NCBI GenBank assembly: GCA_964402535.1
Contig: CAYOCH010000002.1
Span: 6,661 to 70,660 of the forward strand
Source of the DNA: an uncultured Candidatus Saccharibacteria bacterium
GTDB lineage: Bacteria; Patescibacteriota; Minisyncoccia; Phycocordibacterales; Phycocordibacteraceae
Length of the DNA stretch: 64,000 nt
Direction of reading: 5' to 3'
The translations under genes were made by a program, and so were the position numbers. Of this stretch, positions 3,549 to 62,434 are shown one piece after another. The notes beneath the pieces were generated by a model. It was not told the origin of the DNA. It saw only the letters and a program-made list of their open reading frames with translations, and did no database searches. Position 1 is the first letter of the stretch, and the number at the start of each line of letters is the position of its first letter.

Positions 3549-3964
3549 CTCTCGTGTTAGAATACCGGCGTATGCAGTGGTCACTCGACAGCCGGAAGAT
3601 CGCGATCCCCGTGCTCATCGCGCTCTTGGTAGCTGCAATCGCGGCGGCCGTCTATTTCTACGAGAAGGCGAGCAGCACGATCGATCCCTCGCTCGCGTCG
3701 AAGCAGGAGGTCGCGGCGACGATCATCGCGGTTGGGAAGCTCATCGACCTCCCGAGAGGCGAGGCGCCGACCGTCGCGACCGTCTCGAATGCGGACGAGC
3801 TGAAGAGCCAGCAGTTCTTCGCGAACGTGAAGCAGGGCGACAAGGTCCTCATCTATACGACCGCCAAGATGGCCTACCTCTACGATCCGGCCGCTAACCG
3901 ACTCATCAACGTCGCGCCCTTGAACATCGGGATCGCGTCGTCGACACCCGCTCCGAAGAAATAA
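3545..3964 (+). CDS. hypothetical membrane-anchored protein
   Basis: 139 aa with an N-terminal TM helix (IAIPVLIALLVAAIAAAVYFY); translationally coupled to galU; followed by a terminator. Confidence 0.45.
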   Translation: MTLVLEYRRMQWSLDSRKIAIPVLIALLVAAIAAAVYFYEKASSTIDPSLASKQEVAATIIAVGKLIDLPRGEAPTVATVSNADELKSQQFFANVKQGDKVLIYTTAKMAYLYDPAANRLINVAPLNIGIASSTPAPKK

Positions 3965-3992
3965 AAACAGCCCGCTCACGCGGGCTGTTTCG
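3964..3992. terminator. bidirectional intrinsic terminator
   Basis: GC hairpin cagcccgc-tcac-gcgggctg with T-runs on both strands, between convergent genes 3545..3964(+) and 4003..4449(-). Confidence 0.6.
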
Positions 3993-4002
3993 TCTCACGA
4001 GG

Positions 4003-4449
4003 CTAGTTGCCCGAGGCTTCGGAGCCGGAGTTGCCGGCGTCGCTCACGCCTCCCGGCGCCTTGCAGGCCGCTGCGGCAGTGCGGAAGGTCTTCCACGCGT
4101 CGTTGCGCGAGGTGACCCACGCCTTCTGCGCGGTCTTGGTCGAGGCGTTGAAGGCGCTCCACGCGCTCTTCACCGCTGACTTCGCGCCGCCCGCGGTCGC
4201 CTGGGTATAGGCGGCGGCGAGGGCGGCGGCGCGGGCGCTATAGGCTGCGCTCACGGCCGAGGAGTGCGCGCCGATAGCGGTGCCGAGCGCGGTCTCGCGC
4301 GCCGCGACCGCCGTGCCGACGCACGTAATCTTAGACTGGACGGTCGGTGCTGCAGCTGTCGGCGTCGTCGCGGTCTGCGCGAAGGCGAGTGGCGCTGCGG
4401 CGACGATACCGGCGACGATCGTCGAAGCGATCAAGGTCTTGTTCATCAT
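4003..4449 (-). CDS. secreted Ala-rich hypothetical protein
   Basis: 148 aa; signal peptide (MMNKTLIASTIVAGIVAAAPLAFAQ) then low-complexity Ala/Thr-rich sequence. Confidence 0.5.
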   Translation of the reverse strand: MMNKTLIASTIVAGIVAAAPLAFAQTATTPTAAAPTVQSKITCVGTAVAARETALGTAIGAHSSAVSAAYSARAAALAAAYTQATAGGAKSAVKSAWSAFNASTKTAQKAWVTSRNDAWKTFRTAAAACKAPGGVSDAGNSGSEASGN

Positions 4450-4455
4450 GATGAG

Positions 4456-5205
4456 TTAATGAATATTTCTAACTTTGTCAACTGAACGAGGGAAGTATGG
4501 GGCGCGAGCCGCATCGCGACAAGTAGCGGGTTGTTGATAACGGTAGTGCAGTAGGTAATAACCAGCCAGAAATTCCCAGAGGTAGAGCGGTATGCTTGCG
4601 GCCCGTTCAACGAGTCCGGGTATGAACCGGAAGTTGAGAAGCGCTATGAGCGTCAAGAACCCAACGGTACCGATCTTAGCGATCGCGCCGGATATCGGAG
4701 CGAATGACTGCCAATACTGATTCTGCAAAAAAGCACGCGCGAGACAGAACAGGGCTACAACCTCAGCCACATAGGCGATGATAGCCGCAACGACGTGTAT
4801 CGTGCCGGACACGGTTTGAGGTGAACCGGTTGCGTCGGTGGAGAATATTCCGGCGAAGAGAATACCCAAAGCAGAAAGCCCGAAAAAAATCGCCCCAATC
4901 TTTCCCCATCGATGACCCTTGAGTGAATATCCAAGCCCGACCGCCATGAGGCCATTGCCGATGCCATGGATGATAAGTGAAGACCTGAAGAGCGACCCAT
5001 AAGGACCGTTGGCGTAATTGCTGGTGAATTCTGTAATATAATTAAATTCTGGTCTGAGAATATGCATTGCGATCAGAACAATGAACAGATACAAGGCGCC
5101 TGCTATGCCAGCGACACCGCATAGCCGGTAGTAGATGTTCCGGCCGTTGTTGGCTCCTGCTCGGGGTATCGTGTCAGCTGGTACATGCTGGGAATTGATC
5201 ATCAT
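4456..5205 (-). CDS. multi-pass integral membrane protein
   Basis: 249 aa with ~6 predicted TM segments; no recognised catalytic motif. Confidence 0.55.
   Translation of the reverse strand: MMINSQHVPADTIPRAGANNGRNIYYRLCGVAGIAGALYLFIVLIAMHILRPEFNYITEFTSNYANGPYGSLFRSSLIIHGIGNGLMAVGLGYSLKGHRWGKIGAIFFGLSALGILFAGIFSTDATGSPQTVSGTIHVVAAIIAYVAEVVALFCLARAFLQNQYWQSFAPISGAIAKIGTVGFLTLIALLNFRFIPGLVERAASIPLYLWEFLAGYYLLHYRYQQPATCRDAARAPYFPRSVDKVRNIH
4485..4553 (-). promoter_or_regulatory. conserved ~70-nt upstream element, copy 1 (promoter-like; TTGTCG-18-ATACTT on minus strand)
   Basis: ~75% identical to 5252..5322. Both lie 35-50 nt upstream of consecutive minus-strand start codons. Confidence 0.4.
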
Positions 5206-5251
5206 GAGGTGTTTGTATCGATCGCCGAATCTCTCAGGTGCTGTATCACGT

Positions 5252-5322
5252 AACGAGAGAAGTATAGGGGCGCCTGTCGCTCTTGGACAAGCGGTGCGCT
5301 GTTGATAGCGGTAGCGCTACTT
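5252..5322 (-). promoter_or_regulatory. conserved ~70-nt upstream element, copy 2 (TTGTCC-18-TATACT on minus strand)
   Basis: Paralogous to 4485..4553; immediately upstream of the 4456..5205 gene start. Confidence 0.4.
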
Positions 5323-6318
5323 GAGCGCCTCGAGATAGCGATACGTCGTGCCTGAGATCTTGGCGATGACGTCAGCCAGAGCGTTCTGATCCGGACCTTC
5401 GGTCATGACGCAGACGAAATACGGGTGATGCGGGTCGTAGACGATACCGCAATCCGAGAGCTCAACGGCTGTGGCAGTACCGTTTGTGCCGATGACGTGC
5501 TCGCCGTACTTGTGCGCGACGCTGATGCCGCTCCGAACGCCAGCAACGAGCCCTTGGGTATACGTCGACTGGTTCAAGTCTTCGAGGATCTCATTAGAAT
5601 AAGACCAGGGAATATTGTAAGTGCCGTAATAGAGGATGCGGAAGAAGCGCGAGTAGTCATAGGCCGAGATCCTGTAGCCTGTAGCGCCCGGGTCGCTCGG
5701 TTTCGGTATGGAAAGGTCCGTGTACACGCTGCCGAGGATCTCCGGATCGATCGAGGAGAGGAGCGTATCTTTTGCCGCGTTGTCAGAATCGGAAAGCATC
5801 TCCTTGATAAGGTCCGAGATGAAATAGGACTGGCCGACCTTGAGCGAGACCGGCGGTGCGAAGGGGAACTGCGCGTTCTCGCTCTCGAGCTCGGGCGTAT
5901 AGGTGAAGCGCTTTTCAAAGAACGTCGGGTCGCTCTCTTCCTGCTTGTAGGCGGCGATCGCAGCGACCACCTTCAAGAGGCTGCCCGGATCGTATGTGTC
6001 GTCCTCGTTGATGCCCAGCCAGCGGCCGTTCGTGAGGTCGCGCAGATAAAACGAGTACCGAGCGACCGCCCCACGCGGCGCAGCGGACACGGTCTGTTCG
6101 ACCGACCGCTTGAGCGCGTCGAATTGGCCTTGCGCCAGCGTGTCCGGCACCGAGACCAGCAGCAGCGGACGGACGAACGAATACGGCGTGTTATTGTCGA
6201 GGACGAGCTTCACCGAACCGAGAACGTTCCCGTACCATGCTGCGGCCGCTGCATAGCCGGCCGCGCCACCGAGAGCGAGGAGAGTGAACGCGCCGATAAC
6301 AAGCGTCCGTTTCGACAT
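5317..6318 (-). CDS. class A beta-lactamase-like serine hydrolase (secreted)
   Basis: Signal/TM N-terminus; S-x-x-K (GSLLK), SDN (SDSDNAAKD) and KTG-like (HKYGE) motifs. Confidence 0.6.
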   Translation of the reverse strand: MSKRTLVIGAFTLLALGGAAGYAAAAAWYGNVLGSVKLVLDNNTPYSFVRPLLLVSVPDTLAQGQFDALKRSVEQTVSAAPRGAVARYSFYLRDLTNGRWLGINEDDTYDPGSLLKVVAAIAAYKQEESDPTFFEKRFTYTPELESENAQFPFAPPVSLKVGQSYFISDLIKEMLSDSDNAAKDTLLSSIDPEILGSVYTDLSIPKPSDPGATGYRISAYDYSRFFRILYYGTYNIPWSYSNEILEDLNQSTYTQGLVAGVRSGISVAHKYGEHVIGTNGTATAVELSDCGIVYDPHHPYFVCVMTEGPDQNALADVIAKISGTTYRYLEALK

Positions 6319-8390: not shown

Positions 8391-9443
8391 CTATTTGCCG
8401 CGGCCGTAGTACTTCTTGAGGAGCACAACGTGCTCCTTATAGGTGTCGGAGCAGTGGAATCGGCCGTTAGAATCATGGAAATAGAAGAGGCAGGAGGTCT
8501 TGACCGGATTCAAGGCAGCGAGGATCGACGCGACGGAGGGGTTTGCGATCGGTCCAGGCGGGAGACCGGGATTCTGGTAGGTGTTATAGGGCGATTTGCG
8601 ATAGAGGTCGTTCGGGGAGATCTTCGGCCACCAGCTTTTCGCGGCGGCGGTGTTCGCTTTCGCGTATTGCAGCGTCGCGTCGATCTGCAGGTTCATGCCG
8701 ATGAAGAGGCGATTCCAGATGATGCCCGAGATGATACGCCGGTCGTCGGCACCGGCAGCTTCACGCTCGATAAGCGAGGCGACCGTAAGCGCCTCTCCGA
8801 GCGGGACGACGGCTGCCGTGGTCGTACCATAGTGCTCGAGCACATCCGCTTCGAACCGTTTGTTCACCAGTGCCTGCGCGTCGACGGGCGAGAGATCTGG
8901 CGAAACGGCATAAATGCCGGGAGCAAACGAGCCCTCGACGAGCGGCAAGCTCGCACCGCTCTGCGGCGTGAGGAATTGCTGCTTCTGATTGCTGTTCCAG
9001 GAGAGTGCAGAGGCGAAGGCGCTCGCGACCTGCTCCTTGCGCATGCCGGGCGTGACAGCAACGAGCCGGCTGTTCGCTGCGGCGAAGGTCGGGTAGAAGG
9101 GGAGGTCAGAGATCGTTACCGCGAGCCAGTCGAAGACGTTCTTGACGACGTCGCCAAGATCGCCGACCGAGGCGATCAAGGGCGAGCTCGAACGGTTGAA
9201 GAGGGCGTCCGCCTGCGCGTTCTCGACGATCGTCTTGTTGCGCGGATCGACCGAGACCGGGAACTGGTTCACAGGCGCAGAGCGGACTGCGTCCTGCGCG
9301 TGCCGTACATCGAGGGCGAGGATGGTGGGGAGGACGAGGCCGATCGCAATGAGGATGCCGACGAAGATCGCGACGAGCGCAAGGCTGCCGGTGAGCCTCC
9401 GCCGTCCTTCCGTGGCTCTTCGCGGATTCAATCTGGCTTTCAC
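8391..9443 (-). CDS. mltG: endolytic murein transglycosylase MltG (YceG family)
   Basis: N-terminal TM anchor; conserved YceG C-terminal region (…IISGIIWNRL…NLQIDATLQYA…YNTYQNPGLPPGPIANPS…). Confidence 0.8.
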   Translation of the reverse strand: MKARLNPRRATEGRRRLTGSLALVAIFVGILIAIGLVLPTILALDVRHAQDAVRSAPVNQFPVSVDPRNKTIVENAQADALFNRSSSPLIASVGDLGDVVKNVFDWLAVTISDLPFYPTFAAANSRLVAVTPGMRKEQVASAFASALSWNSNQKQQFLTPQSGASLPLVEGSFAPGIYAVSPDLSPVDAQALVNKRFEADVLEHYGTTTAAVVPLGEALTVASLIEREAAGADDRRIISGIIWNRLFIGMNLQIDATLQYAKANTAAAKSWWPKISPNDLYRKSPYNTYQNPGLPPGPIANPSVASILAALNPVKTSCLFYFHDSNGRFHCSDTYKEHVVLLKKYYGRGK

Positions 9444-9465: not shown

Positions 9466-10689
9466 CTATAGCGAATTCAGTGAGGCTCGCGTCGCCGGAC
9501 CGACGTTGCCCACCTTAGGCAGCCCACGCGCCCCTTGGTAGAGCTTCACGGCAGAGGCCGTCATCGTGCCGAAGTAGCCGGTCGCCGCTGTCCTCAAGTA
9601 GCCGAGCGCGATGAGCCGGTTCTGGAGCGCCGTAACGTCTGCGCCCTGCGAGCCGATTGCAAGATTCTTAGCGAAGCGGTAGTTCGAGGCGCTAGTCGGC
9701 GCGCTTGCCGGAGCTGCGACGTTCGTCGCGGCAGTCGAGGCGTTGCCGGTCGTGTTCGCGACCGGTGTTGTGACCGTCGGCGGCGCGTTCGTGACGAGGA
9801 TAGGCACAGTTGTCGTAGCAGCATTGCCGACCGGGTCGGTTGCGACGACGGCGATCGTGTGGCTGCCGAGGTCTGCGGCCACCGGCTTCCAATAGAATTG
9901 TCCCGAGGTCGTCATGTTGCTCGAAGAGACCGTGGTCGATCCGTTGAACGTGTCGCTCACGGAGAATGTGGTCGAGCTCGCAAAGCCGGTTGCGAGCGAG
10001 CTGAGGGAGAAGGTCGTCCCGACGCCGCCCACGCCTCCGGGCACAAGCGACTTGGTCGTCACCTTGGGGTTGATGACCGTCACCGAGAGCGTCGCCTGCG
10101 CGCTATGGCCGTAGGAGTCGTAGCCGATGATGCGGAGGGCGTGCGTGCCGGTATCGTCAGTGGTCGGTGTCCACGTGAAGACTCCTGCAGATGAGAAGGT
10201 GCCGCTCGAGACGGTGCTGAAGGCGACCGAGTCGTAGACGTTGAAGGTCGGCGTCGAGAACCCGGGTGCGGTCACGGTGAAGGAGAACGGACGGCCAGTC
10301 GCGACCGTCGTGCTCGGCTTCACATCGGTGATGAGGAGAGAATTGCTCGCGACGACGAGGCTGATCGTCGTGGTCGCTGCGTTCTTCATGAGGTCGCTCC
10401 CGACGATCGTGAGATTGTGCACGCCGGCGTCGTAGACGGTCGGCGTCCAGGTGAAGTAGCCGTACTTGTCGAGCGTGCCGACGGTCGCGTTGCTCCCGCT
10501 GAAGGCGTCAGTCAGTTTGAATGTCGCATCCGCGAAGCCGCTCGCGGCGACGTAGAAGGTCGCCTGCGTGCCCGGTGTGATCGCGCCTGGTGAGAATCCT
10601 TGGATAGAAAGCGACTGTGCGCTAACGGAGGAAGGGACAGCAGCGAGTAACGTGAAGAGCGCGGCAAGCGCGAAAGTGTGGTGAGTCAT
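9466..10689 (-). CDS. secreted protein with tandem Ig-like domains and C-terminal peptidoglycan-binding domain
   Basis: Signal peptide; repeated beta-rich modules; C-terminal PG_binding_1-like sequence (…ADVTALQNRLIALGYL…GYFGTMTASAVKLYQGARGL…). Confidence 0.6.
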   Translation of the reverse strand: MTHHTFALAALFTLLAAVPSSVSAQSLSIQGFSPGAITPGTQATFYVAASGFADATFKLTDAFSGSNATVGTLDKYGYFTWTPTVYDAGVHNLTIVGSDLMKNAATTTISLVVASNSLLITDVKPSTTVATGRPFSFTVTAPGFSTPTFNVYDSVAFSTVSSGTFSSAGVFTWTPTTDDTGTHALRIIGYDSYGHSAQATLSVTVINPKVTTKSLVPGGVGGVGTTFSLSSLATGFASSTTFSVSDTFNGSTTVSSSNMTTSGQFYWKPVAADLGSHTIAVVATDPVGNAATTTVPILVTNAPPTVTTPVANTTGNASTAATNVAAPASAPTSASNYRFAKNLAIGSQGADVTALQNRLIALGYLRTAATGYFGTMTASAVKLYQGARGLPKVGNVGPATRASLNSL

Positions 10690-16569: not shown

Positions 16570-16874
16570 GAACAATCTGCTCCGGCGGTAGGACTCGAAC
16601 CTACAACCAACGCCTTACACGTGTCCTCTGATTACTCAAAGGGGTGGACTATATCATCACCGGATCTCGGTGCGAGGCGCTTCGTACCTTTCGGCACTAC
16701 TCCCGTGCGGGATAGTCTCTGAACCTTCACGGCGCCGTTCTTGCGAATGTGCCGCGCTTGGCTGCTGATTGCCCTCGTCTTGCTCGTTCGGGGTTCCAGC
16801 AATTCACCTCGTTATTCGACTCGAATTCCTTCGAGAAGCTGCGTTAAGCCACAGGGCGCTGCTCTACCATTGAG
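16570..16874 (-). tRNA. tRNA-Asn (GUU) interrupted by a group I intron in the anticodon loop
   Basis: 5' exon TCCGGTGTAGCTCAATGGTAGAGCAGCGCCCTGT (16841-16874). 3' exon TAAGGCGTTGGTTGTAGGTTCGAGTCCTACCGCCGGAG (16570-16607). Spliced product folds as a canonical cloverleaf with anticodon loop CUGUUAA and discriminator G73. Confidence 0.8.
16608..16840 (-). ncRNA. group I self-splicing intron (233 nt) inserted between anticodon positions 35 and 36
   Basis: Conserved P (AATTGCTGGAA), Q (AATCAGCAGC), R (GTTCAGAGACTATCC) and S (TGATATAGTCC) elements in canonical order. R/S can form P7. Intron begins after exon U and ends with G. CUGU/GCAG can form P1. Confidence 0.8.
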
Positions 16875-16959
16875 CTACACCGGAATATGTCGCTCTCCTT
16901 GCGGAGAGCTAGAAGCATATTAACCGAAAATTGGGGCGCTGCAATGGTACAGTTAGGCC

Positions 16960-43262: not shown

Positions 43263-46200
43263 ATGAAATCGAAGCGCGAAACGAAGGGCCTCATCTCCAC
43301 CCGCTACGCCGGAAAAATTTCGGGCTATACGTCTGCCTACTTGCGCCGCCTCGCACGCTCCGGTGAGATCGAGGGTGTGCAGGTCGGCCGCGTGTGGATG
43401 ATCCGCCAGGCCTCTCTGATTCGCTTTCTCGACGAGCAGGCCAAGCGCAAGGAGGAGCTCTCCAAGGAGCGCGCCCGCGTCCACGCCGAGGAGTACCTCT
43501 CACACCAGGCGCCGGTGAAGCGCGTAGTCGCCAAGATCGCGAAGCCGATCCCGGTCAAGAACGTCGACGTCGAGGGGCTCGTCTCGAGCTCGCGCTCGCT
43601 CGTGGTCACGGTCGTCGTGGCGCTCGTCGCTGGCACGATCGCAGCACAAGGTCTCACGCCGACGCTCACAAGGATCGCTGCGCAGCCGGCGGCGGCACTC
43701 AACGCCGGCGAGCAGATCGCCGTTGCGACCTACGAGACGATCCACGGCCTCTTCACCTCGACGACGAGTGCGCTTGCCGACCTCTTCGCTCCGGCGCCGA
43801 CGATCGTGGTACCGGCTCCGCAGATCCGCGTGAACAAGCCGCCGCTCGCAGTCGCGTCATCATCACCGACGCAGACCAAACCGAAGCAGGTCGCTATCGC
43901 TCCGATTCTCCCGGCTCCGTACAAGGAGCCGGCACCCGTTTCGTACCCGACCTACGTCACGACCATCAACGGCGTCTCGCAGAGCTATGTCGATGCCGCG
44001 GTCTCCGCGATGCGGAGCGGAATCCTCGCCACCGTCTCGGGGATGCTCGCGCCGGTCGCGCAGCAGACCGTCGTCAATCAGACGACCATCCAGCAGGTCA
44101 ACATGATCCAGCGGCTCGGCGGCCTGATCGTCGACAACGGCCAGTTCAACGGCGGCACGTTCGACAAGGGGACGATGACGAACGGCATCGCCGTGAATGC
44201 CGAGAATGCGACGTTCACGAATCTCTCGGCGGGCAACGTGAACCTGGGCGCATCGAACCTCGCGACGACGACCGTCTCGGGCGATCTCACGCTCTCGGGC
44301 GTCTTGTCGGCGAACACGAAGGCTGTCGCGCCCTACTTCGTCGCCACCGCCTCGAACGCCACCAGCACCTTTGCCGGCGGCCTTGCGGTCGGCACGCAGC
44401 GTCTCGTGGTCGACTCGACCACCGGCCGCGTCGGCATCGGCACGACCTCGCCAGCACAGACACTCGAGGTCTCGAGCGCCGGCGACTGGAGCGGCATCAA
44501 CATCACGACGACCGCCGCGGGCAACCACCAGGCGATCTCCTTCAATCACCCGGAGGGCTATCCCTTCCAGATCTTCACGAGCTACACCGGCGGGCGACCT
44601 GACACGCAGTTCTACGTCGGGAGCAGCGGGACGGTCTTCATGTCGAGCAACAAGTTGGCAGTGAACGGCGGGGCGATCCCGTCGGCATCTGAGGCAGCAC
44701 TCTCGGTCGTGCCGGTAGGCACTGAGCCTGGCTTGAACGTCAAGAATAACGTTAACGGCTCATCGTCGCTCTTGGTGACGAATCTCGGCAAGGTGGGTCT
44801 CGCTTCTACGACTCCCTGGGCGCAGCTCTCGGTGAACCCGAACGGCATCACGGGCCCCGCATTCGCGATCGGCAGCTCGACCGCCACCAACTTCGTCGTG
44901 ACGAACGGCGGGCAGGTGGGTATCGGGACGACAAGTCCGGCATACACGTTTGATGTTACCGGTAGTGCGCGGATGGATAACCTCGCAGTGTCACAGAGCG
45001 GCGGCTTCCGCGCTGTCACGGGCAGCTGGGCCGGATCGCCGAGCGGCGACAACCTGAGCTGGCTCGCATTCGGTTGGGCTGACAATACGAAATACCATCG
45101 TATCCGCACGTGCGGGTTCTCGAACGATAACTTGTGCTTCGATTTGATCAATCCGTCGACGCACTACCTCTCGATCACCGGGCAGCTGAACTCGGTCTAC
45201 GGTGCGACGATCGGCTATGCCGCGGGTACTGCCGGACCGACAAACGGCCTTGCCGTGAGCGGCTCGACAGGCATCGGCACCACCTCTCCGTGGGCGCAGC
45301 TCTCGGTTAACCCGAACGGGATCACTGGCCCCGCATTCGCAATCGGCTCCTCGACCGCCACGAACTTCGTCGTGACGAATGGGGGGAATGTCGGGATCGG
45401 GACTACTTCGCCGCAAAGCACGTTTGTCGTCAATGGCACGTCCCAGTTTACGAATAATGCTGTGTTCAATGCGCAGATCAGCGTCAGTCAGATTACCTCG
45501 CCGAATAACTTGTTGATTGCTGCAGGCGGACCACTGGTGCAGATTGCGGGTCACCTAGTGCCGCAAGTTACCGGTACATATGATTTGGGTTCTGCGAGTG
45601 CCGGATGGAGAAACGTGTATGTAACCGGGAACGTCGGCATCGGCACCACCTCGCCAAGCGCGACACTCGCAGTGCAGGGCAACGGCCTTTTCTCGGGCAA
45701 TCTCACCGCCTCGGGCAATACCTATATAGGTGCGACATCGGCGAACACCCTCACGGTGAACGCGCTCGTTAACTCTGACATCACGCCGAGCACGAACGCG
45801 GTCAACTCGCTCGGCTCGCCGAGCTTCTATTGGAAGAATGTCTACGCCGCGAACGTGATCGCCAACAACATCAGCGCCGCCTCGACCACGATCGCGGGCA
45901 CGGCCTCGGCCACCTTCACGATCAACTCGGGCAACGCGACGGCCGACACGCTCGACTCCTCACTCGTCTTCTTCCGCGGGACCGTCGTCCCGAACGCCGT
46001 TCTCGGTTGGGACTCGACCAACAAGCGCTTCACGATGAATCAGCCGCTCTTTATCCAGAACGCGTCGAATAACGGCGGCGGCGTGATCTCGCTCGCGGTA
46101 CAAGGGCTCGCTGGCCAGACCGCCGACGTCCTCCGCATCGCCTCCTCGACCGGCACGAGCTACTTGAACGTGACTGCGGGCGGGAATGTGGGGATCGGGA

Positions 46201-49200
46201 CGGCGAATCCGGGAAGCCTCTTCACCGTCTCTGGAGGGTCATCTGGTGAGCAGCAGGTGGCTTTGTTCACGAGTACCGGTTCAGCTAATACGAAGATCGC
46301 GATCGAAAATGCTGCGGTCGGCGGTCACAGGTGGGAATTGAGGTCAACATCGACCGGCACCTTCGATATCGTCGACAGAACCGCGCCTGCTCAGCGCTTC
46401 GTCATAGACACCGCCGGTAACGTCGGCATCGGCACGACCTCGCCGTGGGCGCAGCTCTCGGTGAACCCGAACGGGGTTACGGGCCCCGCGTTCGCAATCG
46501 GCAGCTCGACCGCCACGAACTTCGTCGTGACGAACGGCGGGCAGGTGGGTATCGGGACGACGAATCCGCAGCAGGCGCTGCATATCAGTACGACGAATAC
46601 GTATCAGGGCATCTTCTTGAACGGCAACGCAGCGCCCTCGATCGGGTTCGCCGGCTGGAGCGGGCTGACGCCCGCGTGGAAGGTGGGCATCAGCGGGTCG
46701 GCAGGGAGCAACTTGGCTATCAGCACCGGAGCGGCGAACGCCGACCTCTTCAACTTCACGACCGCGGGCAATCTCGGCATCGGGACGACCTCGCCGTGGG
46801 CGCAGCTCTCGGTGAACCCGAACGGGGTTACGGGCCCCGCCTTCGCGATCGGCTCCTCGACCGCGACGAACTTCGTCGTGACGAACGGCGGGCAGGTGGG
46901 GATCGGCACAAGCAATCCGACGCTCGGGACGGGCTCGACGACCCTCGAAGTCTACGGCAACGGCGGCGGCTTCACCCAGTACGGCTCGCTGTCTCTCGCC
47001 AACACTACGAACTCCGGCAGCTCCTATTCAGGCTCGGTCGACTACTACGGCGCTACCACGTTGTACGGCCAGATTCGCACGCACGTGATCACCGGCGGCC
47101 CGAGCGGTATGTCCCAGATCGAATTGTCGGCGCTGAATGGCGGCGCGCTGAATCAGGTGTTCACGGTCGGTGGCACCGGCAGCGTGACGGTCGGCACCGC
47201 AAACGGTGTGTCGAGCGGGTATCTTGGCGTCTACAACTCGGCCGGATACGGGCAGACGAATACCGGCATCATCTTGGGCAACATGCAGACGGGCGCCGGC
47301 TCGAATATCGGGGTCAACTTCGTCGACTACGCGCAGAACAACATCGCGCAGATCCTCGGCGTGTATCCGGGCGGCACCAAGGCCGGCAGCCTCGCGTTCT
47401 CGACCGGGAACGGCACGAGCCTGAACGAAGCGATGCGCATCACGAGCGCCGGCAATATCGGCATCGGTACCTCGACTCCCGCAGAGAAACTGGACGTCGC
47501 CGGGCGGCTCTCGATCGAGGATATCTCGGGCAATCCGCCGTCGGCGGCTCGGTCGTCATTTGTCTTCGAGAGCAATACGGACCCTCTCAATACGTCCGTC
47601 TCGGCGCTCTACGTGTATCCGAGGACCGACACCTCTAAGCGCTTCTATTTCGGCACGACGACGCACCAGTTCTATGCCGTCGACTTCTCGAACGTCTTGA
47701 GCATCACGGGTGTGACCAGTATCCAAGGCGCTCCCAACACGCAGGCGATCGATTTTTCATCGGCTGCGTATGACACGACCTACGGCACGGCGACGTTCGA
47801 CTTCAAGCCCACGGTCGATAACACCCGGCCGGTCGTGCTGCGCAACTCGCGCGTCACCGACAGCGCGACCTCGGTCGGCTTCGTGCTGAAGACGGTCAAT
47901 ACGCTCTCGAACGCATCGGCGAAGCTCCTGACGCTCGACAACAACACGACGAACCTTCTGACCGTCATGGCGAACGGCAATGTCGGCATCGGGACCACTT
48001 CTCCATTCGCTGACCTTTCGATTGGCGGGGCGAGCAACGGGACTAACCCGCTCTTCGCGGTCTCGACCTCGACTGCGAGCGCGACCTCGACCGCCTTCAT
48101 CATCGACAAGAACGGGAATGTCGGCATCGGGACGGCGAACCCGGGCCAGGCGCTCACGGTGAATGGCGAGATCAGCCTCTTGGGCGCATCTGGCTCGTCG
48201 CGCGGGCTCTTGGGCGCGCCGACATGGGACAACTCATACGTCTCGCTCCAGAACGGGTCGTTGAGTGAGAGCGCCGCGAACTCGGCGATCAACCAAAACA
48301 GCCTCGGTGACACGATCGTGAACGCCGCGACCGGCAGGGCGCTCCACCTGCGCGTCGGCAACACCGAGCAGATGAGCTTTAACGGCACCATCGCCGCATT
48401 CCAGAACGTGAACGTCGGCATCGGGACCACGAGCCCGGCAGACAATCTCGACGTATACGCGCCGAACAACGCGGGATTGGCGAAGATTGGACTGATAAGG
48501 GGCGATGGAGCGGGGTATCTGACGCAATGGACCTATGGCCCGGCGGGGAACGGATTCCTCGAGATCGGCGAGAACGAGGCGTTCAACAGCTCCGGCTCGG
48601 CGCGGGTACAGTTCAATACCGGAGCGCCGTCGTGGTTCCAGCAGTTCAACACCAACGTCGACAGCTATCAGATCGCACGCATCCCGGCGGGCGGCAGCAC
48701 GGCAAACGTGATGCTCTATATACAGAGTAACGGCAACGTCGGCATCGGCACCACCTCTCCCTCGCAGGCGCTCTCTGTGCAGGGCAATGGCCTCTTCTCG
48801 GGCAACATCACGGCAGCGAACATCACGGCGACTGGGACGGTGACTGCCGCGAATTTCTCCGGCCCAGGTGTAGATCCGCAAGGATATGGCAACTACTTGT
48901 CGATAAATCCTGCGACTCAGGATCTCAAATTCTCACGCGGCGGCTACTGGCTCAATTTCAATTTGACCAACAACACGCCTGTCATCACATCACAGAACAA
49001 TCTATTAGCCCTGCCTGGTATCACAGCGACATCCTCTGTATTTACGGGATACTCCGCGCAGCAAGATGTGAGTCGCTCAACGATCCTCTCGCTCACGCGG
49101 CAGAATACCGGCGCCCGCTTTCAACAAGCAGCAAACTTCATAATGGGCGGCTACGATTCGGCACAAACTGCGCATACGCAATTGGATATCGCCCTCACGA

Positions 49201-52200
49201 ACACCGCGACAAACGGCGTCCCAGACGCGACCGTGATGAGCCTCTTGGGCAACGGCAACGTCGGCATCGGTTCGACCACGCCTGCCGCGACGCTCGCGGT
49301 GCAGGGCAACGGCCTCTTCTCGGGCAACATCACAGCCGCGAACATCACTGCGACTGGGACGCTCTCGACAACCGGCGCGATCTCGGCACCGTACTTCGTC
49401 GCGACGAACGCGCTCGCAACGAGCACGTTTGCAGGCGGCATCACGGGGCCGGGCAGCTTTGCGGTGCAGCAGACGACTGGCTATGTCGGCATCGGGACGA
49501 CGTCGCCGACGAGTGCACTCTATGTCGCGGGCAATGGCCTCACATCAAGCGTTATCACGGCTGACGGAGGCGCGAACTCTATATTCGGCCTCACCGTGCG
49601 GGGCTATCAGAACTGGGGCTCGGGTGTCGCCTACACCAACCAGACTGCAAACCGTACCTACGTCACGTATCAGGACACGACAGGTAATTTCAATATCTAC
49701 GACAGCACGGTGGGGAATCGGGTCACGGTGACTTCTACCGGCAGCGTCGGCATCGGCACCACGACTCCGTTCTATAAGCTTGAGGTGAACGGCACGGTCG
49801 AGGTCGCGAACGGGAGCGGTCTTTATGCGCTCTCGTCGAGCGGCACGCACTACCGGCTCGTGGACCTCGACGCGAGCAACGTCGTGAACATGGGCCCCAA
49901 CGGCTCGATCCAGATCGCGAACGGCGCGCCCTCGAGCGCGATCTTCGTGCAGAACACTGGCTCGGTCGGGATAGGCACGAATAGCCCTCAAGTGGCGCTG
50001 CATGTAGGGCCGACGGCAGCCGGCGCGAATGAGGTCGCAAGATTCGAACATGCGAACGCTGCGGGTTCATCCGGCATCACGATCTATCAGAATGGGACAC
50101 TAAAGGGCTCTCTCGGTACTGGCGACTTCGTGGCGACTGGGGGAGCCAACACAGACTTCGGCATCCAGTCTGCTGGCAACATGCTGTTCGCTACTGGCGG
50201 TACTGTCCAAAAAATGGTGCTGACATCAGGCGGCAATGTCGGCATCGGGTCGACCTCGCCCACGAGCCTCTTGAGCGTCTATGGCGCGGCGGGGGCGGCC
50301 ACCGTCACGATCGGCTCGCCCTCGAACTCTGCGCTCTTGACGCTCGATCGCGGCTCGAACACGCAGAACGCGACCTTTAACCTCAACACCGCGGGCGTGA
50401 ATTACGGCTACTTCGGCCTCGACACGAGCGCCAACTCGGTGACGCTCGCCTCGTCGAACAACAACCAGCTCACGGTCTCAGCGCACAACGCAAACCTCCT
50501 CCTGCGCGGCGGCACGAGCAACGGCATCATCATGCAGACCAACGGCAGCGCCGAGGCGATGCGCGTCACAAGCGGCGGCAACGTCGGCATCGGGTCGTCG
50601 ACGCCAAGCGCTGTCCTCGCGGTGTCGAACACGGCCGCGACCGCCGCCAACACGCCGCTCTTCACGATCGCTTCGACGACGGGCGGCACCTCCACGTCAA
50701 GCTTGATGACCGTTCTCGCGAACGGCAACGTCGGGATAGGTACGAGCAATCCGACCTCGCCGCTGTATGTATCGGGTGCGCCTGCGTTGCAGGCGGTCAT
50801 CGGCACGACGGCGAACACGCAGAACTGGATCTCTATCATCAAGTCGAGCAGTCAGACTGCGAGCTTCGGCATCCGCGCCAATAACTACGGCTTCCTCCAG
50901 GCGAACACCGGGATGCAGATCGAGAACTCGTCGTCGCAACCCTATATCGTGTTTGACGGGGTGAACGAAGGGATCGGCACCACGTCGCCATCTGCGACGC
51001 TCGCAGTGCAGGGCAATGGCCTCTTCTCGGGCAACATCACGGCTGCGAACATCACCGCGACGGGGACGCTCTCGACCACAGGAGCGATCTCGGCGCCCTA
51101 CTTCGTCGCGACGTCGCCGACCGCGACCTCAACCTTCGCGGGCGGCGCGACGTTCGCGACGAGCGGCGGCAACGTCGGTATCGGGACAGCGAATCCAGGC
51201 TACGCACTCGACGTCGCCGGTCTTGCGGGCATCAATGGGCGAGTGAAGCTTGGCGCCGGCAACGATCAGGTGGACATTGCGAACGGTGGCCTCGTGCTAC
51301 ATGACAGCGGCACAACTGCATATGTCGAGGCGCAGAATTCTAACAAGCCGCTCGTTCTCGGTACCAGTAACGCGGATATTCAATTCACTACAGGATTCGG
51401 CGTCACAGAGCTGATGAGGATCAAAGCGAACGGGAATGTGGGGATCGGCACGTCGACGCCCGCGGCTACGCTCGCGGTCGCGATGGCGAGCACAACACCG
51501 GCCTTCTATATCGGCGCGGCAGGGAGCTCGTCGCCCGCCTTCTATGTCGGCAGCGCGAACGGGAGCGGGCTCGTGGGTATCGGCACCTCGGCACCCGACC
51601 ATCCGCTCCAGATCACCGGCAACCCGCTACTCACGAGCGCGGTCGTGCGTGTGGGCGCCGTCGCGCAGAACGTCTCTGCATTGCGCGTGAAGGGCTACTT
51701 CAACGGCTTGAACGGCAATGAGGATGCCGGCGGCGTGAACGTCTACAACTACAACTCGGCCACGGTGCAGGCGACGCTCGGCGGCGACAGCGGCCTCTTC
51801 GCCTCGCCGCGCGGCACCAACCTCGTCGCGGCGATCGTCCGCGGCCTCACCGGCCAGACAGCCAATCTGCAAGAGTGGCAGGATGTGAACGGCAATCCGC
51901 TCTCTGTGATTACGAGCAGCGGCAACCTCGGCGTGGGCACCTCCTCGCCCGCGCAGGCGCTCTCGGTCGCGGGGACGGGCTACTTTGCGACGAATGTCGG
52001 CATCGGCGTGGCGAACCCGGGCGTATATAGCCTTATGGTGCAGGCGCCGACGATCGGCGGCCAAGTCTTCGGCGTCACTACGAATTATGGCAACAGCGGC
52101 AAGTTCGAAGTCAGCTTCAACAGCGGCAACGACCCGTTCGCTCACTTGACTACTAAGCAGGGTGGACAGATCGCCTACTACGACATGTACGACTCGGTCG

Positions 52201-54920: not shown

Positions 54921-54968
54921 GCTGCGATCGTCAACCAGTCGCAGAACATTAGCGGCGGCAACGGCCTC

Positions 54969-57900
54969 GTGGTGGTCAACAAGTATCTCTCGGCCAACTC
55001 GACCACCTTCGAGGTTGGGACGATCAACGACAGCAACGGCGTCTACGCCTCATCGCTCAAGATCACGGGCGACAACGCGGTCCGCGTGCCGCTCACGCTC
55101 CAGCTCGGCAACTCGGGCGGCAACGTGACCAGTCTGCAGCTCGGCGCCAACACCTCGGTCGCGAGCGGCGCCGTGATCGCGAATATCTATAACGCCAGCA
55201 ATAATCCGGGCATCACGGTCGGTACGAGCCGCACCGACGGCACCGCCTTCACGGTCGCAAACGGGATCACTTATGACGCGAACAAGGTGCCGAACTCGGG
55301 CGGCACCGCGCTCCTCACCGTGCTCGGCGGCGGCAATGTTGGCGTGGGCACCACCTCGCCGTATGCGCTCCTCGCCCTCTCGAACTCAGTGTCGACGCCC
55401 GCTAACACGCCGTTCTTCACGATCTCGAGCACAACCGGCGGCACCTCTACCTCGACCCTCATGACCGTGCTCGCGAACGGGTACGTGGGCATCGGGACGG
55501 CGAGTCCGGGACGATTCCTGGATGTGGTGGCGAGTACCACTGCCGGGACAGAAATCGCGCGATTCACCAACACGCCTGTAAGCAATCGGTATATCTCTGT
55601 CCGCACGGTGGGCGCGTCTGATTTCGGCGGTGCGTACATCGGCGGGCCGATGTTGGACAGCAGTGATCCCCAGGTCATTTTCGGCAAGAATCTGTTACTG
55701 CCAAGTAACGGTGCGAATATAGCATTGGCTCAATCCAGCTTGACGAGTTCGTCTGCCGGGGGAACGGTGCTGACGAGCGGCGGATCGACGGCCCAAGCCG
55801 GGACAACTATCCAGCTGGGGAATAGCTCGACTTTCCAAGGGAATCTGTACGTTAAAGATGGGTCGGGGAACACGGTGATGACAGTCCAACCGACAGGTAA
55901 TGTCGGTATTGGTGCCACCGCACCAACCTCGCCCTTGACGGTCGTGACGCCCTCACTGTGGGGCAATGGGGCAGCAGGCGAGAATCTAGGCGTGACGGTC
56001 AACCCGTCGGCCAACGGCACGCTCTATGGGCTTTTTAACCTGACAAGTGTCACGGCCACGACCACGACCGGCAACGCGGCCGTCGTCGGCTCTCAGAACA
56101 CGGTGACGGCCACCAATAACAACGGCGGCAACACCACGCTCACCGCCGTCTCTGGGACGACGAACAACACCGGCGGTGGGAGCGCAAGCCAGATGACCGG
56201 CTTCTTTACGAATCCGGCGGTCTATAACACCGGTTCGTCGGTGAGCTCGCTCTATAACTTCTACGCAAACGACGTCTATCTCGGCAACGGCACCTCGCAG
56301 CCCTTCGGCTCGGTCAACAAGCTCTACGGCTATTATGTCGGTGCGCTCCAGAGCGCCTCGACCAACTACGGCCTCTTCTTCGCCAACAACCCGAACGGCG
56401 GCTCGATCGCCTCGGCCGCCTCGACCAACATCTCGATCCTGCCCGGCTCGGGCGGGAGCGTGGGGATCGGCACCACATCGCCGTGGGCACAACTTTCGGT
56501 CAACCCGAACGGGATCGCGGGCCCCGCCTTCGCGATCGGCTCCTCGACCGCGACGAACTTCGTCGTGACGAACGGCGGGAATGTGGGGATCAACACGGTT
56601 AACGCGACGAACGCTCTCACGTTCGGCGCGACAGGCGGCTATGAGATCTCGACGGAGCCGAACAATGCAAACGACCTCAACATCACGACGAACGCGACGA
56701 ACGGCGGCGGGATCTCTCTCGGTGCAAGAAACTCGAACAAATCGATCTATGTGAGTATCGGGGGTGGAGTCGGTATCGGCACGACCTCGCCGCGCGCCGC
56801 TCTTGAGATCGGCGGCAGCGCGAACCCGTCCGTCTACCTCAACTCGCAATATTCAACGCCGAGCACGATGCAGTGGTATATCCCGAACATCGCGACGATG
56901 TCGCTCGTCGCAAATGCGGTCGGGAACGAAAACGCAAACGCGCAGTGGGTCATGGACATGGGCTCTAGTGACGGCCTTACAGATTCTTTTGGCGTACTCC
57001 GCGCTAGTACCGTGGGTTCCACCCGCGTGCCGTTCTTCGTGGTGAACAACAACGGCAACACCGGCATCGGCACCACGACGCCGGGCGGCGACCTCTCGAT
57101 CGCAGGCAGCGCCGGCGGCACCAACCCGCTCTTCCTCATCTCTTCGAGTACCTCGGGCTACGCGACCTCGACCGCGTTCATGGTCGACAGTTACGGCAGC
57201 CTTGGCATCGGTCGGGTGCCGAACGCGCAGCTCTCAGTGGCTGGCGACGCCTATATCGGTACTGGCGCAGGCTCCTTCACCTTCACCTCCAACTACAACT
57301 TCAACGCACAAGGCACCAACTTCGGCCCGAGCCTCAACATCTCTGATGGCGATGCGACAAACCGCTGGGCCTCACTGCGCCTATCGACGGCGGGCGGTCA
57401 ATGGGAGATGGCCGACATGGGCGGGAACCTCGGATTCCTCCGCGGCTCGAACAATCGCGTAGTGATCGGTCGCTCCGATAGCAGCAATGCGAACCTGAAC
57501 GTCTACAACGACGCCAACACCATCCTCTTCACGGTTCAGCCGACGGGCTACGTCGGTATCGGTCCGAGCAACCCAGTTAATCAGCTCGACATCGGCATCG
57601 GGCCGTTCGCAACCGCCAAGACGGCCAACTTCAGCACCCTCAACATCGCGAACACGGCGACCTCCTCGTCGTCGTTCACGAAGACCGGCATGCAGATCTC
57701 ATCGACCGGCGCGTGGACAGGCCCGAACTACGGCCTCTATGTCTCGGCGGTCTCGGGCGGCACCAACAACTACGACGCGATCTTCAACGGCGGCGGCAAC
57801 GTCGGTATCGGCACCACGACGCCTTCGGATCTCTTGTCACTCGCTTCAACTAATCCGAGAATCGACCTGTTTGACACGAATGTTTCGGGTCCGGCGCGTG

Positions 57901-60295: not shown

Positions 60296-61039
60296 GAATG
60301 AAGGACATCGTATGTCCTTCATTCAAGCTTTTCGTAAGGCTTGAAGCTCGAATCTGAATCGCGGAGATATTCGTGAATGGACACGGAATAGCTTCCGAGA
60401 GCGTCTTTGAATAGCGTCGGTGATAAGAGGGAAGGGAAGTTGTGTTCACCAGTATAATCCGGATAGCTGCTCCAACGATACGTACGCAAATATTTCAAAG
60501 CATCATCCACATTTCGTATTCCAGCCTTCTCGCGTAGACGCCACTGTTCAGCCCCTGGTAGATAATCAAGCGGATTCAAGTGAATGTAGTGAAGGATGTA
60601 CAAGAAGTGCGAGTCGCGGTCGATCAGAATCTTCTTGGTGCGGCCCTGGAAGAGAGTGCCGCTGCGTGAATATCGCTCGTTGAAATATTTTGCGTAGCCG
60701 ACGTTGAGCTTTCGTAAGAAGAGGCTCATGGCACCGTCGACGCGTTCGCTCAACAGCAGGTGGTAGTGATTTTTCATCAGTACCCAGCCATGGATGTCGA
60801 CTAGCAGCTCCCGCGGTTCCCTAAATGAAGGACATACGAAGTCCCTCATGGCAGTCGGGTCAAATAGGCGCCACACGTTGTCTGCGGGTGCTGTATCGTT
60901 AAACTCATAGAGATCGTGCACGAAGCGAGCGTAATCCTGGGTATCAAGGAACAAATCTCTCCCCTCAACGCCGCGATTTAGGACGTGCCAAAGTTCCATA
61001 TACATCATGATACATGAAGGACATACGATGTCTTTCATG
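60296..61039 (-). mobile_element. second IS200/RAYT-like element: Y1 transposase flanked by ~27-nt hairpins
   Basis: Perfect hairpin GAATGAAGGACAT-CGT-ATGTCCTTCATTC at 60296-60324 and CATGAAGGACAT-ACG-ATGTCTTTCATG at 61013-61039; a degenerate third copy lies inside the gene at 60823-60849. Confidence 0.6.
60319..60999 (-). CDS. IS200-like Y1 (HuH) transposase / RAYT, copy 2
   Basis: HuH motif MKNHYHLLL, …FQGRTKKILIDRDSHFLYILHYIHLNPL…; divergent homolog of 40149..40850. The track start 61038 lies inside the flanking hairpin, so the internal ATG (MELWHVL…) is preferred. Confidence 0.65.
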   Translation of the reverse strand: MELWHVLNRGVEGRDLFLDTQDYARFVHDLYEFNDTAPADNVWRLFDPTAMRDFVCPSFREPRELLVDIHGWVLMKNHYHLLLSERVDGAMSLFLRKLNVGYAKYFNERYSRSGTLFQGRTKKILIDRDSHFLYILHYIHLNPLDYLPGAEQWRLREKAGIRNVDDALKYLRTYRWSSYPDYTGEHNFPSLLSPTLFKDALGSYSVSIHEYLRDSDSSFKPYEKLE

Positions 61040-61801: not shown

Positions 61802-62434
61802 TTATGCCTCGTGACGGTTCACGAGCGCGGCGCGCAGCGTCTCGGCGTCGGCGTACTCGAGCTCGCTGCCGGTAGAGAGACCGCGGCCGAGGAGCGAGAT
61901 GGTGAGCGAGTCACGATAGGGTGCGAGCAGCTCGCGAACGCGGTCGCTCGTGTGCTCGCCCTCGCTCGTCGCTCCGAGCGCGAGCACGACCTCTTTTCCG
62001 CCAGAGGCGGACCCGCCTTTGGCGGGCAGGCTCGTCTTTAAATGTTTATCAACTCGTCGCACGAGCTCCTTCTCTCGGATCGCACCCTTGCCGGTCAGGG
62101 TGAGTACGCCGCCGAGAACGAAGTAGCGGCCCTTGTAGGTGCCGGCGCGCTCGATGGCGGCCAGGTCCTGATCCTTCTCGACTACCATGAGCTGCGCATC
62201 GTCGCGGTGCGTGTCGGTGCAGTAGTTGCAGACCGTTGCCATCGTGCCGTTGAAGTAGCGCATGCAGTCGGGGCACTGATGCACGTCCTTGCCGAGCGAA
62301 GCGATCAGCTCTGCGAGCCGTGCGCGGTCCGCGGCGTTTGAGGTGAGGAGGTGAAAGACGAAGCGCTTGGCCTGTCGCGGGCCGATGCCGGGCAGTTTAG
62401 CGAGCGCCTGTGCGAGTGCGTCGATGTGATCCAT
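61802..62434 (-). CDS. recR: recombination protein RecR
   Basis: HhH (LPGIGPRQAKR), C4 zinc finger (CPDC…CNYC), Toprim domain. Confidence 0.85.
   Translation of the reverse strand: MDHIDALAQALAKLPGIGPRQAKRFVFHLLTSNAADRARLAELIASLGKDVHQCPDCMRYFNGTMATVCNYCTDTHRDDAQLMVVEKDQDLAAIERAGTYKGRYFVLGGVLTLTGKGAIREKELVRRVDKHLKTSLPAKGGSASGGKEVVLALGATSEGEHTSDRVRELLAPYRDSLTISLLGRGLSTGSELEYADAETLRAALVNRHEA

What the first reader, a model, noticed from the sequence alone, without database searches (positions are those of the whole stretch)
4485..5322. Paralogous ~70-nt element upstream of two consecutive minus-strand genes
Segments 4485-4553 and 5252-5322 align at ~75% identity (AACGAGRGAAGTATRGGG…GACAAG…GTTGATARCGGTAGYGC…). 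Each sits 35-50 nt upstream of a start codon (Ala-rich secreted protein; multi-pass membrane protein). On the coding strand each contains TTGTC(G/C)-18 nt-(A/T)ATACT, plus a conserved upstream block CTACCG(T/C)TATCAACA. This could be a duplicated promoter plus operator, or a conserved structured 5' leader. The first copy overlaps the C-terminal tail of the upstream ORF as called.
Basis: seen in the sequence. Interest (0 to 1): 0.5.

Follow-up and report, generated by a model that had tools for sequence, protein, structure and literature searches.

The report
Duplicated promoter flanking an acquired gene
A roughly 66-base promoter-like stretch occurs twice, once in front of a foreign-looking membrane-protein gene and once in front of the native secreted-protein gene after it; this looks like an ordinary local promoter duplication, not a riboswitch or a genome-wide repeat.

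Summary
On the minus strand, 4549-4485 and 5317-5252 align at 49/66 (74%). That is the best of 780 pairs of gene-upstream regions in the window and about 18 sd above shuffles. A second colinear block at the two start codons matches 15/18.

There are only two copies in the 64 kb. Pattern scans of genome, metagenome and viral collections, and BLAST against plasmids and phages, found no relatives.

Each copy carries a sigma-70-like pair: TTGTCG-17-CATACT and TTGTCC-18-TATACT. These lie 44 and 55 nt before the ATG of two unrelated genes.

The gene between the copies (DUF998) is a compositional outlier. Its GC3 is 0.57, against 0.74-0.87 for its neighbours. Its only relatives lie in 42-46% GC contigs and are 212-218 aa long. 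The 27-residue tail in this window is read-through across copy 1.

There is no Rfam match, no covariation and no unusual folding energy.

Best reading: the native promoter, leader and start region of the secreted-protein gene was duplicated, and the duplicate now drives a horizontally acquired gene. An operator role for the upstream block is possible but untested. The rest of the source genome, a Patescibacteria MAG probably from Kaiserbacteria, could not be searched. Low interest.

The parts
5252..5317 (-). Copy 2 of the 66-nt core. It lies directly after the stop codon of the beta-lactamase-like gene and 46 nt upstream of the DUF998 start codon.
   Evidence: nhmmer 66 bits
4485..4549 (-). 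Copy 1 of the core. It lies 35 nt upstream of the start of the Ala-rich secreted-protein gene, inside the read-through tail of the DUF998 ORF.
   Evidence: nhmmer 57 bits
5300..5317 (-). Upstream conserved block of copy 2, GCGCTACCGCTATCAACA, about -63 to -46 from the inferred start site. Candidate activator, UP-like or operator site; function untested.
4532..4549 (-). Upstream conserved block of copy 1, GCACTACCGTTATCAACA.
5261..5290 (-). Promoter-like core of copy 2: TTGTCC (5290-5285), 18-nt spacer, TATACT (5266-5261).
   Evidence: 9 of 12 matches to the sigma-70 consensus
4494..4522 (-). Promoter-like core of copy 1: TTGTCG (4522-4517), 17-nt spacer, CATACT (4499-4494). This is 8 of 12 to consensus, below the scan threshold.
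   Evidence: read from the sequence
5196..5213 (-). Start-codon block of the DUF998 gene, AACACCTCATGATGATCA, 15/18 identical to its counterpart at gene 1.
4440..4457 (-). Start-codon block of gene 1, AACTCATCATGATGAACA.
4456..5205 (-). DUF998 membrane-protein gene between the two copies. It is a compositional outlier. Homology to relatives ends near nt 4540; 4456-4539 is a 27-codon read-through tail across copy 1 and leader 1.
4003..4449 (-). Ala-rich secreted protein gene (148 aa, no Pfam family, GC3 0.87). It is the presumed original owner of the promoter.
5317..6318 (-). Class-A beta-lactamase-like serine hydrolase gene. Its stop codon TAG (5319-5317) abuts copy 2.
3964..3991 (-). Hairpin plus T-run terminator after gene 1. 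It is the only convincing terminator-like site downstream of both copies; the scan's other minus-strand site (4753-4768) is a weak 5-bp stem inside the DUF998 coding sequence.

Best explanation
The two segments are paralogous copies of one sigma-70-type promoter region. Each has an upstream block, a -35-like TTGTC(G/C), a 17-18 nt spacer, a -10-like (C/T)ATACT and a pyrimidine-rich start-site region TTC(C/T)CTCGTT. The duplication originally included the leader and start codon. Copy 1 is the native promoter of the Ala-rich secreted-protein gene. Copy 2 is a duplicate placed in front of a horizontally acquired DUF998 gene that now sits between the beta-lactamase-like gene and the secreted-protein gene.

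Inferred working: transcripts from copy 2 (start near 5254) carry DUF998 plus gene 1. Transcripts from copy 1 (start near 4487) carry gene 1 alone. Both end at the hairpin at 3964-3991. The DUF998 reading frame has lost or never had its own stop and runs 27 codons through copy 1, ending 6 nt before gene 1's ATG.

Shown: the homology, the motif anatomy, the two-copy count in the window, the non-homology of the genes, the compositional oddity and shorter relatives of DUF998, and the absence of RNA-structure signal. Inferred: promoter activity, start sites, direction and mechanism of the duplication, and any shared regulation.
For: - Pair significance.
- Promoter-like hexamers with 17/18-nt spacers on the coding strand: and reading.
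- The conserved core ends about 3 nt past the inferred start site, so it is mostly non-transcribed DNA (reading).
- The downstream proteins are unrelated and the upstream genes belong to different families.
- DUF998 GC3 is 0.57, against 0.74-0.87 for six flanking genes. The same gene has GC3 0.46 in relatives that sit in 42-46% GC contigs.
- Only two relatives of DUF998 turned up among 5.8 billion proteins. Both are 212-218 aa and end where copy 1 begins. The tail has GC3 0.29, unlike host coding sequence.
- In the relatives, DUF998 sits in tight operons with no such element.
- Gene-1 orthologues carry TATAnT 18-51 nt before the ATG (32-51 nt in seven of the eight loci). L033 has CCCGTATACTTCTCT, 14/15 to copy 2; 3 of 300 shuffles reach that score.
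- The core is 74% identical while the leaders are unalignable, and the start block is 83% identical. This suggests the functional parts were kept.
Against: - No transcription data exist, so promoter activity is only a consensus match. Copy 1 scores 8/12 and was not reported by the scanner.
- Mismatch clustering within the 66-nt core is not significant (p 0.10-0.18). Selection on particular blocks is therefore not demonstrated inside the core.
- Many other genes in the window look leaderless, with -10 boxes 6-8 nt from the ATG. A 37-48 nt leader is not this genome's usual layout.
- The ancestral state (gene 3, element, gene 1 without DUF998) was not observed in any relative.
- Only 64 kb of the genome was searchable, so 'two copies only' holds for the window and not for the genome.
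Confidence: 0.6

Rival explanations
1. Regulon or dispersed promoter family. The 66-nt module is one promoter-plus-operator type used at several places in this genome, or a mobile promoter. The two copies here are simply the two that fall in the window. The 18-nt upstream block would be the binding site of a shared regulator.
For: The upstream block is the best-conserved part of the core (16/18). The core is far better conserved than the leaders. A similar 9-mer lies 30-33 nt upstream of the -10 box both here and in L033/L040: (T/C)TATCAACA versus CTTTCCACA. Only about 64 kb of a genome that probably approaches 1 Mb could be searched.
Against: There is no third copy in the 64 kb, even with an nhmmer profile (next best E = 3.6). 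Exact-pattern scans of 185,579 species genomes and of JGI metagenomes gave only chance hits in unrelated low-GC coding sequence. There is no conserved dyad or direct-repeat symmetry in the block and no regulator gene nearby. The two copies are adjacent, as expected for a local duplication.
Confidence: 0.17
2. Insertion scar. The direct repeats are a by-product of how the foreign DUF998 segment integrated, for example Campbell-type or microhomology-mediated recombination duplicating the target, or att-like sites. Copy 2 need not be a working promoter.
For: The repeats exactly bracket a compositionally foreign gene. The 5' edge of copy 1 coincides within about 10 nt with the end of DUF998 homology. 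Experimental work shows that horizontally transferred genes are often activated by duplication or deletion events at microhomologies that capture a promoter (PMC6614815). A scar and a captured promoter are therefore not mutually exclusive.
Against: At 74% identity with unalignable leaders, neutral decay would be expected to have erased the hexamers and spacing too, yet both copies keep them. There is no recombinase or integrase next to the locus among the genes scanned. There is no hairpin or attC-like self-complementarity and no terminal inverted repeats.
Confidence: 0.15
3. Conserved structured 5' leader or other cis-acting RNA, such as a riboswitch, attenuator or processing site, present in front of both genes.
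For: The position upstream of two start codons. Copy 2 alone folds slightly better than shuffles (z -1.4).
Against: There is no Rfam family at gathering score, and nothing better than E = 2 locally. The RNAalifold consensus is -4 kcal/mol with 9 pairs and 0 compensatory changes. Copy 1 has z = +0.5, and the minimum-energy structures of the two copies differ. The part closest to the start codon, where a leader would act, is the least conserved.
Confidence: 0.04

Closest known systems
Putative mobile promoters / promoter propagation (Matus-Garcia, Nijveen & van Passel 2012, PMC3488235; Nijveen et al. 2012, PMC3575422)
   Same: Homologous non-coding sequence within about 150 nt upstream of non-homologous genes in one genome, with unrelated upstream genes. 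It is a two-member family, which is the commonest size in that survey (68% of families; mean alignment length 66 nt for pairs).
   Different: Identity is 74%, and 70% in the 50-nt windows at either end of the 66-nt core. This is below the survey's cut-off of at least 80% over at least 50 nt, and well below the 92% mean of its pairs. The two copies are adjacent (767 nt apart) and flank one gene rather than being dispersed. The similarity also includes the start codon.
Promoter capture by duplication or deletion that activates horizontally transferred genes (Li & Bock 2019, PMC6614815)
   Same: A foreign, promoterless coding sequence ends up behind a copy of a resident promoter. Duplication-type rearrangements are a documented route.
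   Different: That work is experimental evolution in E. coli with recent, identical duplications. Here the event is old (26% divergence), is inferred from sequence only, and lies in an uncultured Patescibacteria genome.
Integron gene cassettes (attC sites flanking promoterless ORFs)
   Same: A single foreign ORF is bracketed by short repeated non-coding elements in the same orientation.
   Different: There is no imperfect-palindrome structure. No R''/R' core sites (RYYYAAC ... GTTRRRY) could be read in either copy. No integrase was seen among the neighbouring genes scanned. The element also lies 5' of each ORF and looks like a promoter.

Membership tests
Putative mobile promoter (PMP) as defined in PMC3488235 | [quoted passage not shown] | tested here: met
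   The cores end 35 and 46 nt upstream of the ATGs.
Putative mobile promoter (PMP) as defined in PMC3488235 | Downstream CDSs and upstream CDSs do not align | tested here: met
   BLASTP of gene 1 against DUF998 gives E = 12. The upstream genes are Beta-lactamase2 and DUF998. Only the first 2-3 codons are shared.
Putative mobile promoter (PMP) as defined in PMC3488235 | Alignment of at least 50 nt with at least 80% identity | tested here: not met
   49/66 = 74%. The 50-column windows at either end of the core each hold 15 mismatches (70%), counted by hand from the positions printed.
Sigma-70-type promoter | -35 and -10 hexamers close to TTGACA/TATAAT, 16-18 nt apart, on the coding strand upstream of the gene | tested here: inconclusive
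   Copy 2 is TTGTCC-18-TATACT, 9/12, and was reported by the scan, which finds 1.0 such site per shuffle of the region. Copy 1 is TTGTCG-17-CATACT, 8/12, below the scan threshold.
Sigma-70-type promoter | Transcription initiates about 7 nt downstream of the -10 hexamer | not testable with these tools
   No transcriptome or start-site data are available.
Riboswitch / structured cis-regulatory RNA | Match to a curated covariance model | tested here: not met
   Rfam 15 gives nothing at this locus at gathering score. At E up to 10 there are only microRNA- or sRNA-model noise hits at 14.6-19.8 bits.
Riboswitch / structured cis-regulatory RNA | Conserved secondary structure supported by compensatory changes and by stability beyond shuffles | tested here: not met
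   0 compensatory pairs, -4 kcal/mol consensus. z-scores +0.49, -1.39, +0.04 and -0.69. Only two sequences were available, so the power is low.
Integron attC site | Imperfect inverted-repeat (hairpin) architecture with R''/L''-L'/R' sites | tested here: not met
   There is no long self-complementarity on either strand. No RYYYAAC/GTTRRRY pair could be read.
Integron attC site | Associated integron integrase and attI | not tested
   Only the seven neighbouring genes were scanned against Pfam; none is a recombinase.
Dispersed repeat (REP / MITE / REPIN) | Many copies per genome, and terminal inverted repeats or a palindromic unit | tested here: not met
   Two copies in 64 kb. No palindrome. The rest of the genome is not available.

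The most novel reading that the evidence does not exclude
The 66-nt module is the signature promoter-plus-operator of a so far undescribed envelope-related regulon, or a mobile promoter family, in Kaiserbacteria-like Patescibacteria. The 18-nt upstream block would then be the binding site of a lineage-specific regulator, and the module would be what this reduced genome uses to plug newly acquired genes into an existing control circuit.
Probability: 0.12. Interest if true: 0.45.

Novelty: new member of a known kind. Interest (0 to 1): 0.18.

Why it matters
If the reading is right, this is a tidy natural example of how a horizontally acquired, promoterless gene becomes expressed in a very small, uncultured (Patescibacteria) genome: by receiving a copy of a neighbour's promoter, leader and start codon. 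It also bears on annotation. The last 27 codons of the DUF998 ORF as called are read-through across that promoter, not a conserved part of the protein. It does not open a new class of element or a new mechanism.

Tried and rejected
- **Further copies in the window.** Three pattern searches with up to 3 mismatches and an nhmmer profile with --max found only the two copies.
- **Genome-contig scan.** ACCGYTATCAACA-N6-12-TTGTC-N15-23-ATACT gave 2 hits, in an Oscillospiraceae and a Pseudomonadales genome, unrelated beyond the pattern. I had estimated about 8 chance hits for this pattern. The source genome is evidently not in that collection.
- **Metagenome-contig scan.** CTACCGYTATCAACA-N6-12-TTGTC gave 25 hits, all in 34-52% GC contigs with no similarity downstream of the pattern.
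- **Viral-contig scan.** The second-half pattern gave 7 chance hits with no nhmmer support.
- **blastn against plasmids and phages.** No match.
- **DUF998 relatives.** Their contexts (L001-L004) hold no element; the genes sit 7-15 nt from their neighbours.
- **Extending the window.** Look-ups of end proteins gave about 0.9 kb on one side and nothing on the other.
- **uORF idea.** Short ORFs starting 11-12 nt after the -10 box and ending in TCATGA across the main ATG exist in both leaders. Their peptides are unrelated. ATGA at the start is universal in the orthologues, and L033/L040 have no such uORF. Rejected.
- **Known operator look-alikes.** The upstream 9-mer resembles a DnaA box (7-8 of 9), which by my own estimate would occur by chance in roughly 5% of such segments. 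Kept only as a note.
- **ECF-type promoter reading.** The spacing does not fit.
- **Mismatch clustering inside the core.** Not significant.

Full report
**1. What is there**

All the relevant genes lie on the minus strand. Read 5' to 3' they are:
- a GH18-like gene (7577-6318);
- a class-A beta-lactamase-like gene (6318-5317);
- a 111-nt gap;
- a DUF998 membrane-protein gene (5205-4456 as called);
- a 6-nt gap;
- a 148-aa Ala-rich secreted-protein gene with no Pfam or NCBIfam family (4449-4003);
- a hairpin plus T-run terminator (3991-3964).

Family assignments come, and the terminator.

Copy 2 occupies 5317-5252 and copy 1 occupies 4549-4485.

**2. Is the similarity real?**

Yes.
- blastn gives 49/66 identities (74%) with one gap, E 4e-10. 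MAFFT gives the same alignment.
- With +1/-1 scoring the pair scores 30. Two thousand shuffles give 8.2 +/- 1.2 with a maximum of 15.
- It is the top pair among all 780 pairs of upstream regions of 40 genes in the window. The runner-up, at 27, is coding sequence of paralogous genes.
- A second colinear block around the two start codons matches 15/18: AAC(T/A)C(A/C)TCATGATGA(A/T)CA.
- The leaders between the two blocks, 35 and 46 nt long, do not align better than random.
- The similarity stops sharply at the 5' edge, GC(A/G)CTACC.

Two small corrections to the finding. Copy 1 has CATACT. The spacers are 17 nt in copy 1 and 18 nt in copy 2.

**3. How many copies?**

There are two in this window. 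Three degenerate patterns with up to 3 mismatches, and an nhmmer profile run without filters, find nothing else (next best in the window E = 3.6).

Searches of outside collections also found nothing related:
- Exact-pattern scans of one genome per species, of JGI metagenomes and of IMG/VR returned only chance matches in unrelated, mostly low-GC coding sequence.
- BLAST against plasmids and phages found nothing.

The source genome itself is not in the genome collection, and the look-up route gave less than 1 kb beyond the window. Copy number in the whole genome therefore remains unknown.

DnaB from the window falls in a 90%-identity cluster with proteins named Candidatus Kaiserbacteria, Parcubacteria or Patescibacteria. 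The organism is thus a small-genome candidate-phyla-radiation bacterium.

**4. Anatomy**

On the coding strand each copy reads, in order:
- an 18-nt block GC(A/G)CTACCG(T/C)TATCAACA;
- 9 nt;
- TTGTC(G/C);
- a 17- or 18-nt spacer ending in GCGCCCC;
- (C/T)ATACT;
- TTC(C/T)CTCGTT.

The hexamers match TTGACA/TATAAT at 8/12 in copy 1 and 9/12 in copy 2. The scanner reports copy 2.

With a start site about 7 nt after the -10 box, the conserved core runs from about -63 to +3. Most of it is therefore DNA upstream of the transcript, not leader RNA. The leaders would be about 37 and 48 nt long and have no Shine-Dalgarno sequence.

Many other genes in the window have a TAnnnT box only 6-8 nt before the start codon and look leaderless. 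These two genes share an unusual layout for this genome.

**5. The gene between the copies looks foreign**

- DUF998 has GC3 0.57 over its conserved part, against 0.74-0.87 for six flanking genes.
- A search of 5.8 billion proteins found, besides itself, only two relatives, at 57% and 53% identity. Both lie in 42-46% GC contigs from the same sequencing project. There the gene has GC3 0.46 and sits 7-15 nt from its operon neighbours, with no trace of the element.
- Those relatives are 212-218 aa long and end at the position of residue ~222 of the window protein, about nt 4540. That is within ~10 nt of the 5' edge of copy 1.
- The extra 27 residues are the translation of copy 1 plus leader 1. 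Their GC3 is 0.29, unlike host coding sequence. The frame stops 6 nt before gene 1's ATG.

The tail is read-through, not conserved protein.

**6. Which copy is the original?**

Gene 1 has native composition (GC3 0.87). Its 13 database homologues are at most 63% identical.

In the eight loci I could fetch, every orthologue has a TATAnT box upstream of its ATG. The box lies 32-51 nt upstream in seven loci and 18 nt upstream in L034.

In the two higher-GC contigs the box is TATACT. L033 reads CCCGTATACTTCTCT, 14/15 identical to copy 2; 3 of 300 shuffles score as well.

This weakly supports the (C/T)ATACT box as the real -10 of this gene family's promoter. Gene 1 would then be its original owner. 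None of those loci has the beta-lactamase-like gene upstream, so the pre-insertion state was not observed.

**7. RNA alternative**

- Rfam has nothing here at gathering score, and only noise at E up to 10.
- RNAalifold on the two copies plus leaders gives -4 kcal/mol, 9 pairs and no compensatory change.
- Single-sequence folds are no more stable than shuffles (z +0.49, -1.39, +0.04 and -0.69; plus strand +0.21 and -1.20). The structures differ between the copies.

With two sequences the test is weak. Even so, nothing points to a structured leader, and the region nearest the start codons is the least conserved.

**8. Interpretation**

The best-supported reading is a duplicated promoter, leader and start region, with one copy now driving a horizontally acquired gene.

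This is the phenomenon surveyed as 'promoter propagation' or 'putative mobile promoters'. There, two-member families of about 66 nt upstream of unrelated genes are the commonest case (PMC3488235; PMC3575422). It is also shown experimentally as promoter capture by duplication or deletion at microhomologies after gene transfer (PMC6614815).

Formally the pair fails the survey's cut-off of at least 80% over 50 nt. It is 74% overall, and 70% in the 50-nt windows at either end of the core (positions). I therefore describe it as working like a propagated promoter rather than as a member by that definition.

The core and the start block remain recognisable while the leaders have randomised. This suggests that both copies are kept functional. 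Within the core, however, the mismatches are not significantly clustered (p 0.10-0.18).

Whether the 18-nt upstream block is an operator or activator site is open. It has no conserved symmetry, there is no regulator gene nearby, and its resemblance to a DnaA box (7-8 of 9) is within chance.

**9. Rivals**

- A genome-wide regulon or mobile promoter family cannot be excluded, because about 64 kb is all I could search.
- A pure insertion scar is possible, but it does not explain why both copies retain the hexamers and their spacing.
- A structured RNA is unlikely.
- Integron attC, REP/MITE and ECF-promoter readings each fail on features I could test or read.

**10. Verdict**

It is best explained as a local, fairly old promoter duplication associated with gene acquisition. 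This is ordinary biology and useful for annotation, and of low wider interest unless further copies turn up in the rest of the genome.

Noticed in passing
window 16574-16884 (-): A tRNA-like gene interrupted in its anticodon loop by a group I intron (Rfam RF00028, 16625-16862, 64 bits). Both exon halves can be read, with an acceptor stem that pairs. ARAGORN did not call it. The anticodon identity was not resolved.
   Followed up: partly
window 60298-61038: A 239-aa ORF (60319-61038, minus strand, GC3 0.58) has a weak IS200-like Y1 transposase hit (E 3.3e-4, below the Pfam cut-off). It is flanked by two copies of the same palindromic hairpin, ATGAAGGACAT-CGT-ATGTCCTTCAT, at 60298-60322 and 61014-61038. 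This is a RAYT- or IS200/IS605-like layout in a Patescibacteria genome.
   Followed up: partly
window 43263-60281 (+): Two adjacent giant ORFs (3885 and 1770 aa) are built from dozens of diverged repeats sharing a GNVGIGT(T/S)SP-type motif. They account for most of the window's direct-repeat families.
   Followed up: no
window, many gene starts (e.g. 1468, 8391-9443, 9466-10689, 16960, 30792, 40149, 62434-63795): TAnnnT boxes, often with TGn just upstream, lie only 6-8 nt before the start codon. This suggests widespread leaderless transcripts in this genome. The two genes of the finding are exceptions, with 37-48 nt leaders.
   Followed up: partly
window 4456-4539 (-): An annotation point. The last 27 codons of the DUF998 ORF are absent from both known relatives and have GC3 0.29. 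They are read-through across the downstream promoter copy.
   Followed up: yes
L033 about 120-200 and L040 about 190-270 (upstream of gene-1 orthologues): The two higher-GC orthologous loci share a conserved intergenic block with each other (ATACAGTCGT...CCTTTTTATGACA, 25/31). Both carry CTTTCCACA 30 nt upstream of TATACT, at the position where the window copies have (T/C)TATCAACA. This could be a common upstream site or a divergent promoter.
   Followed up: partly
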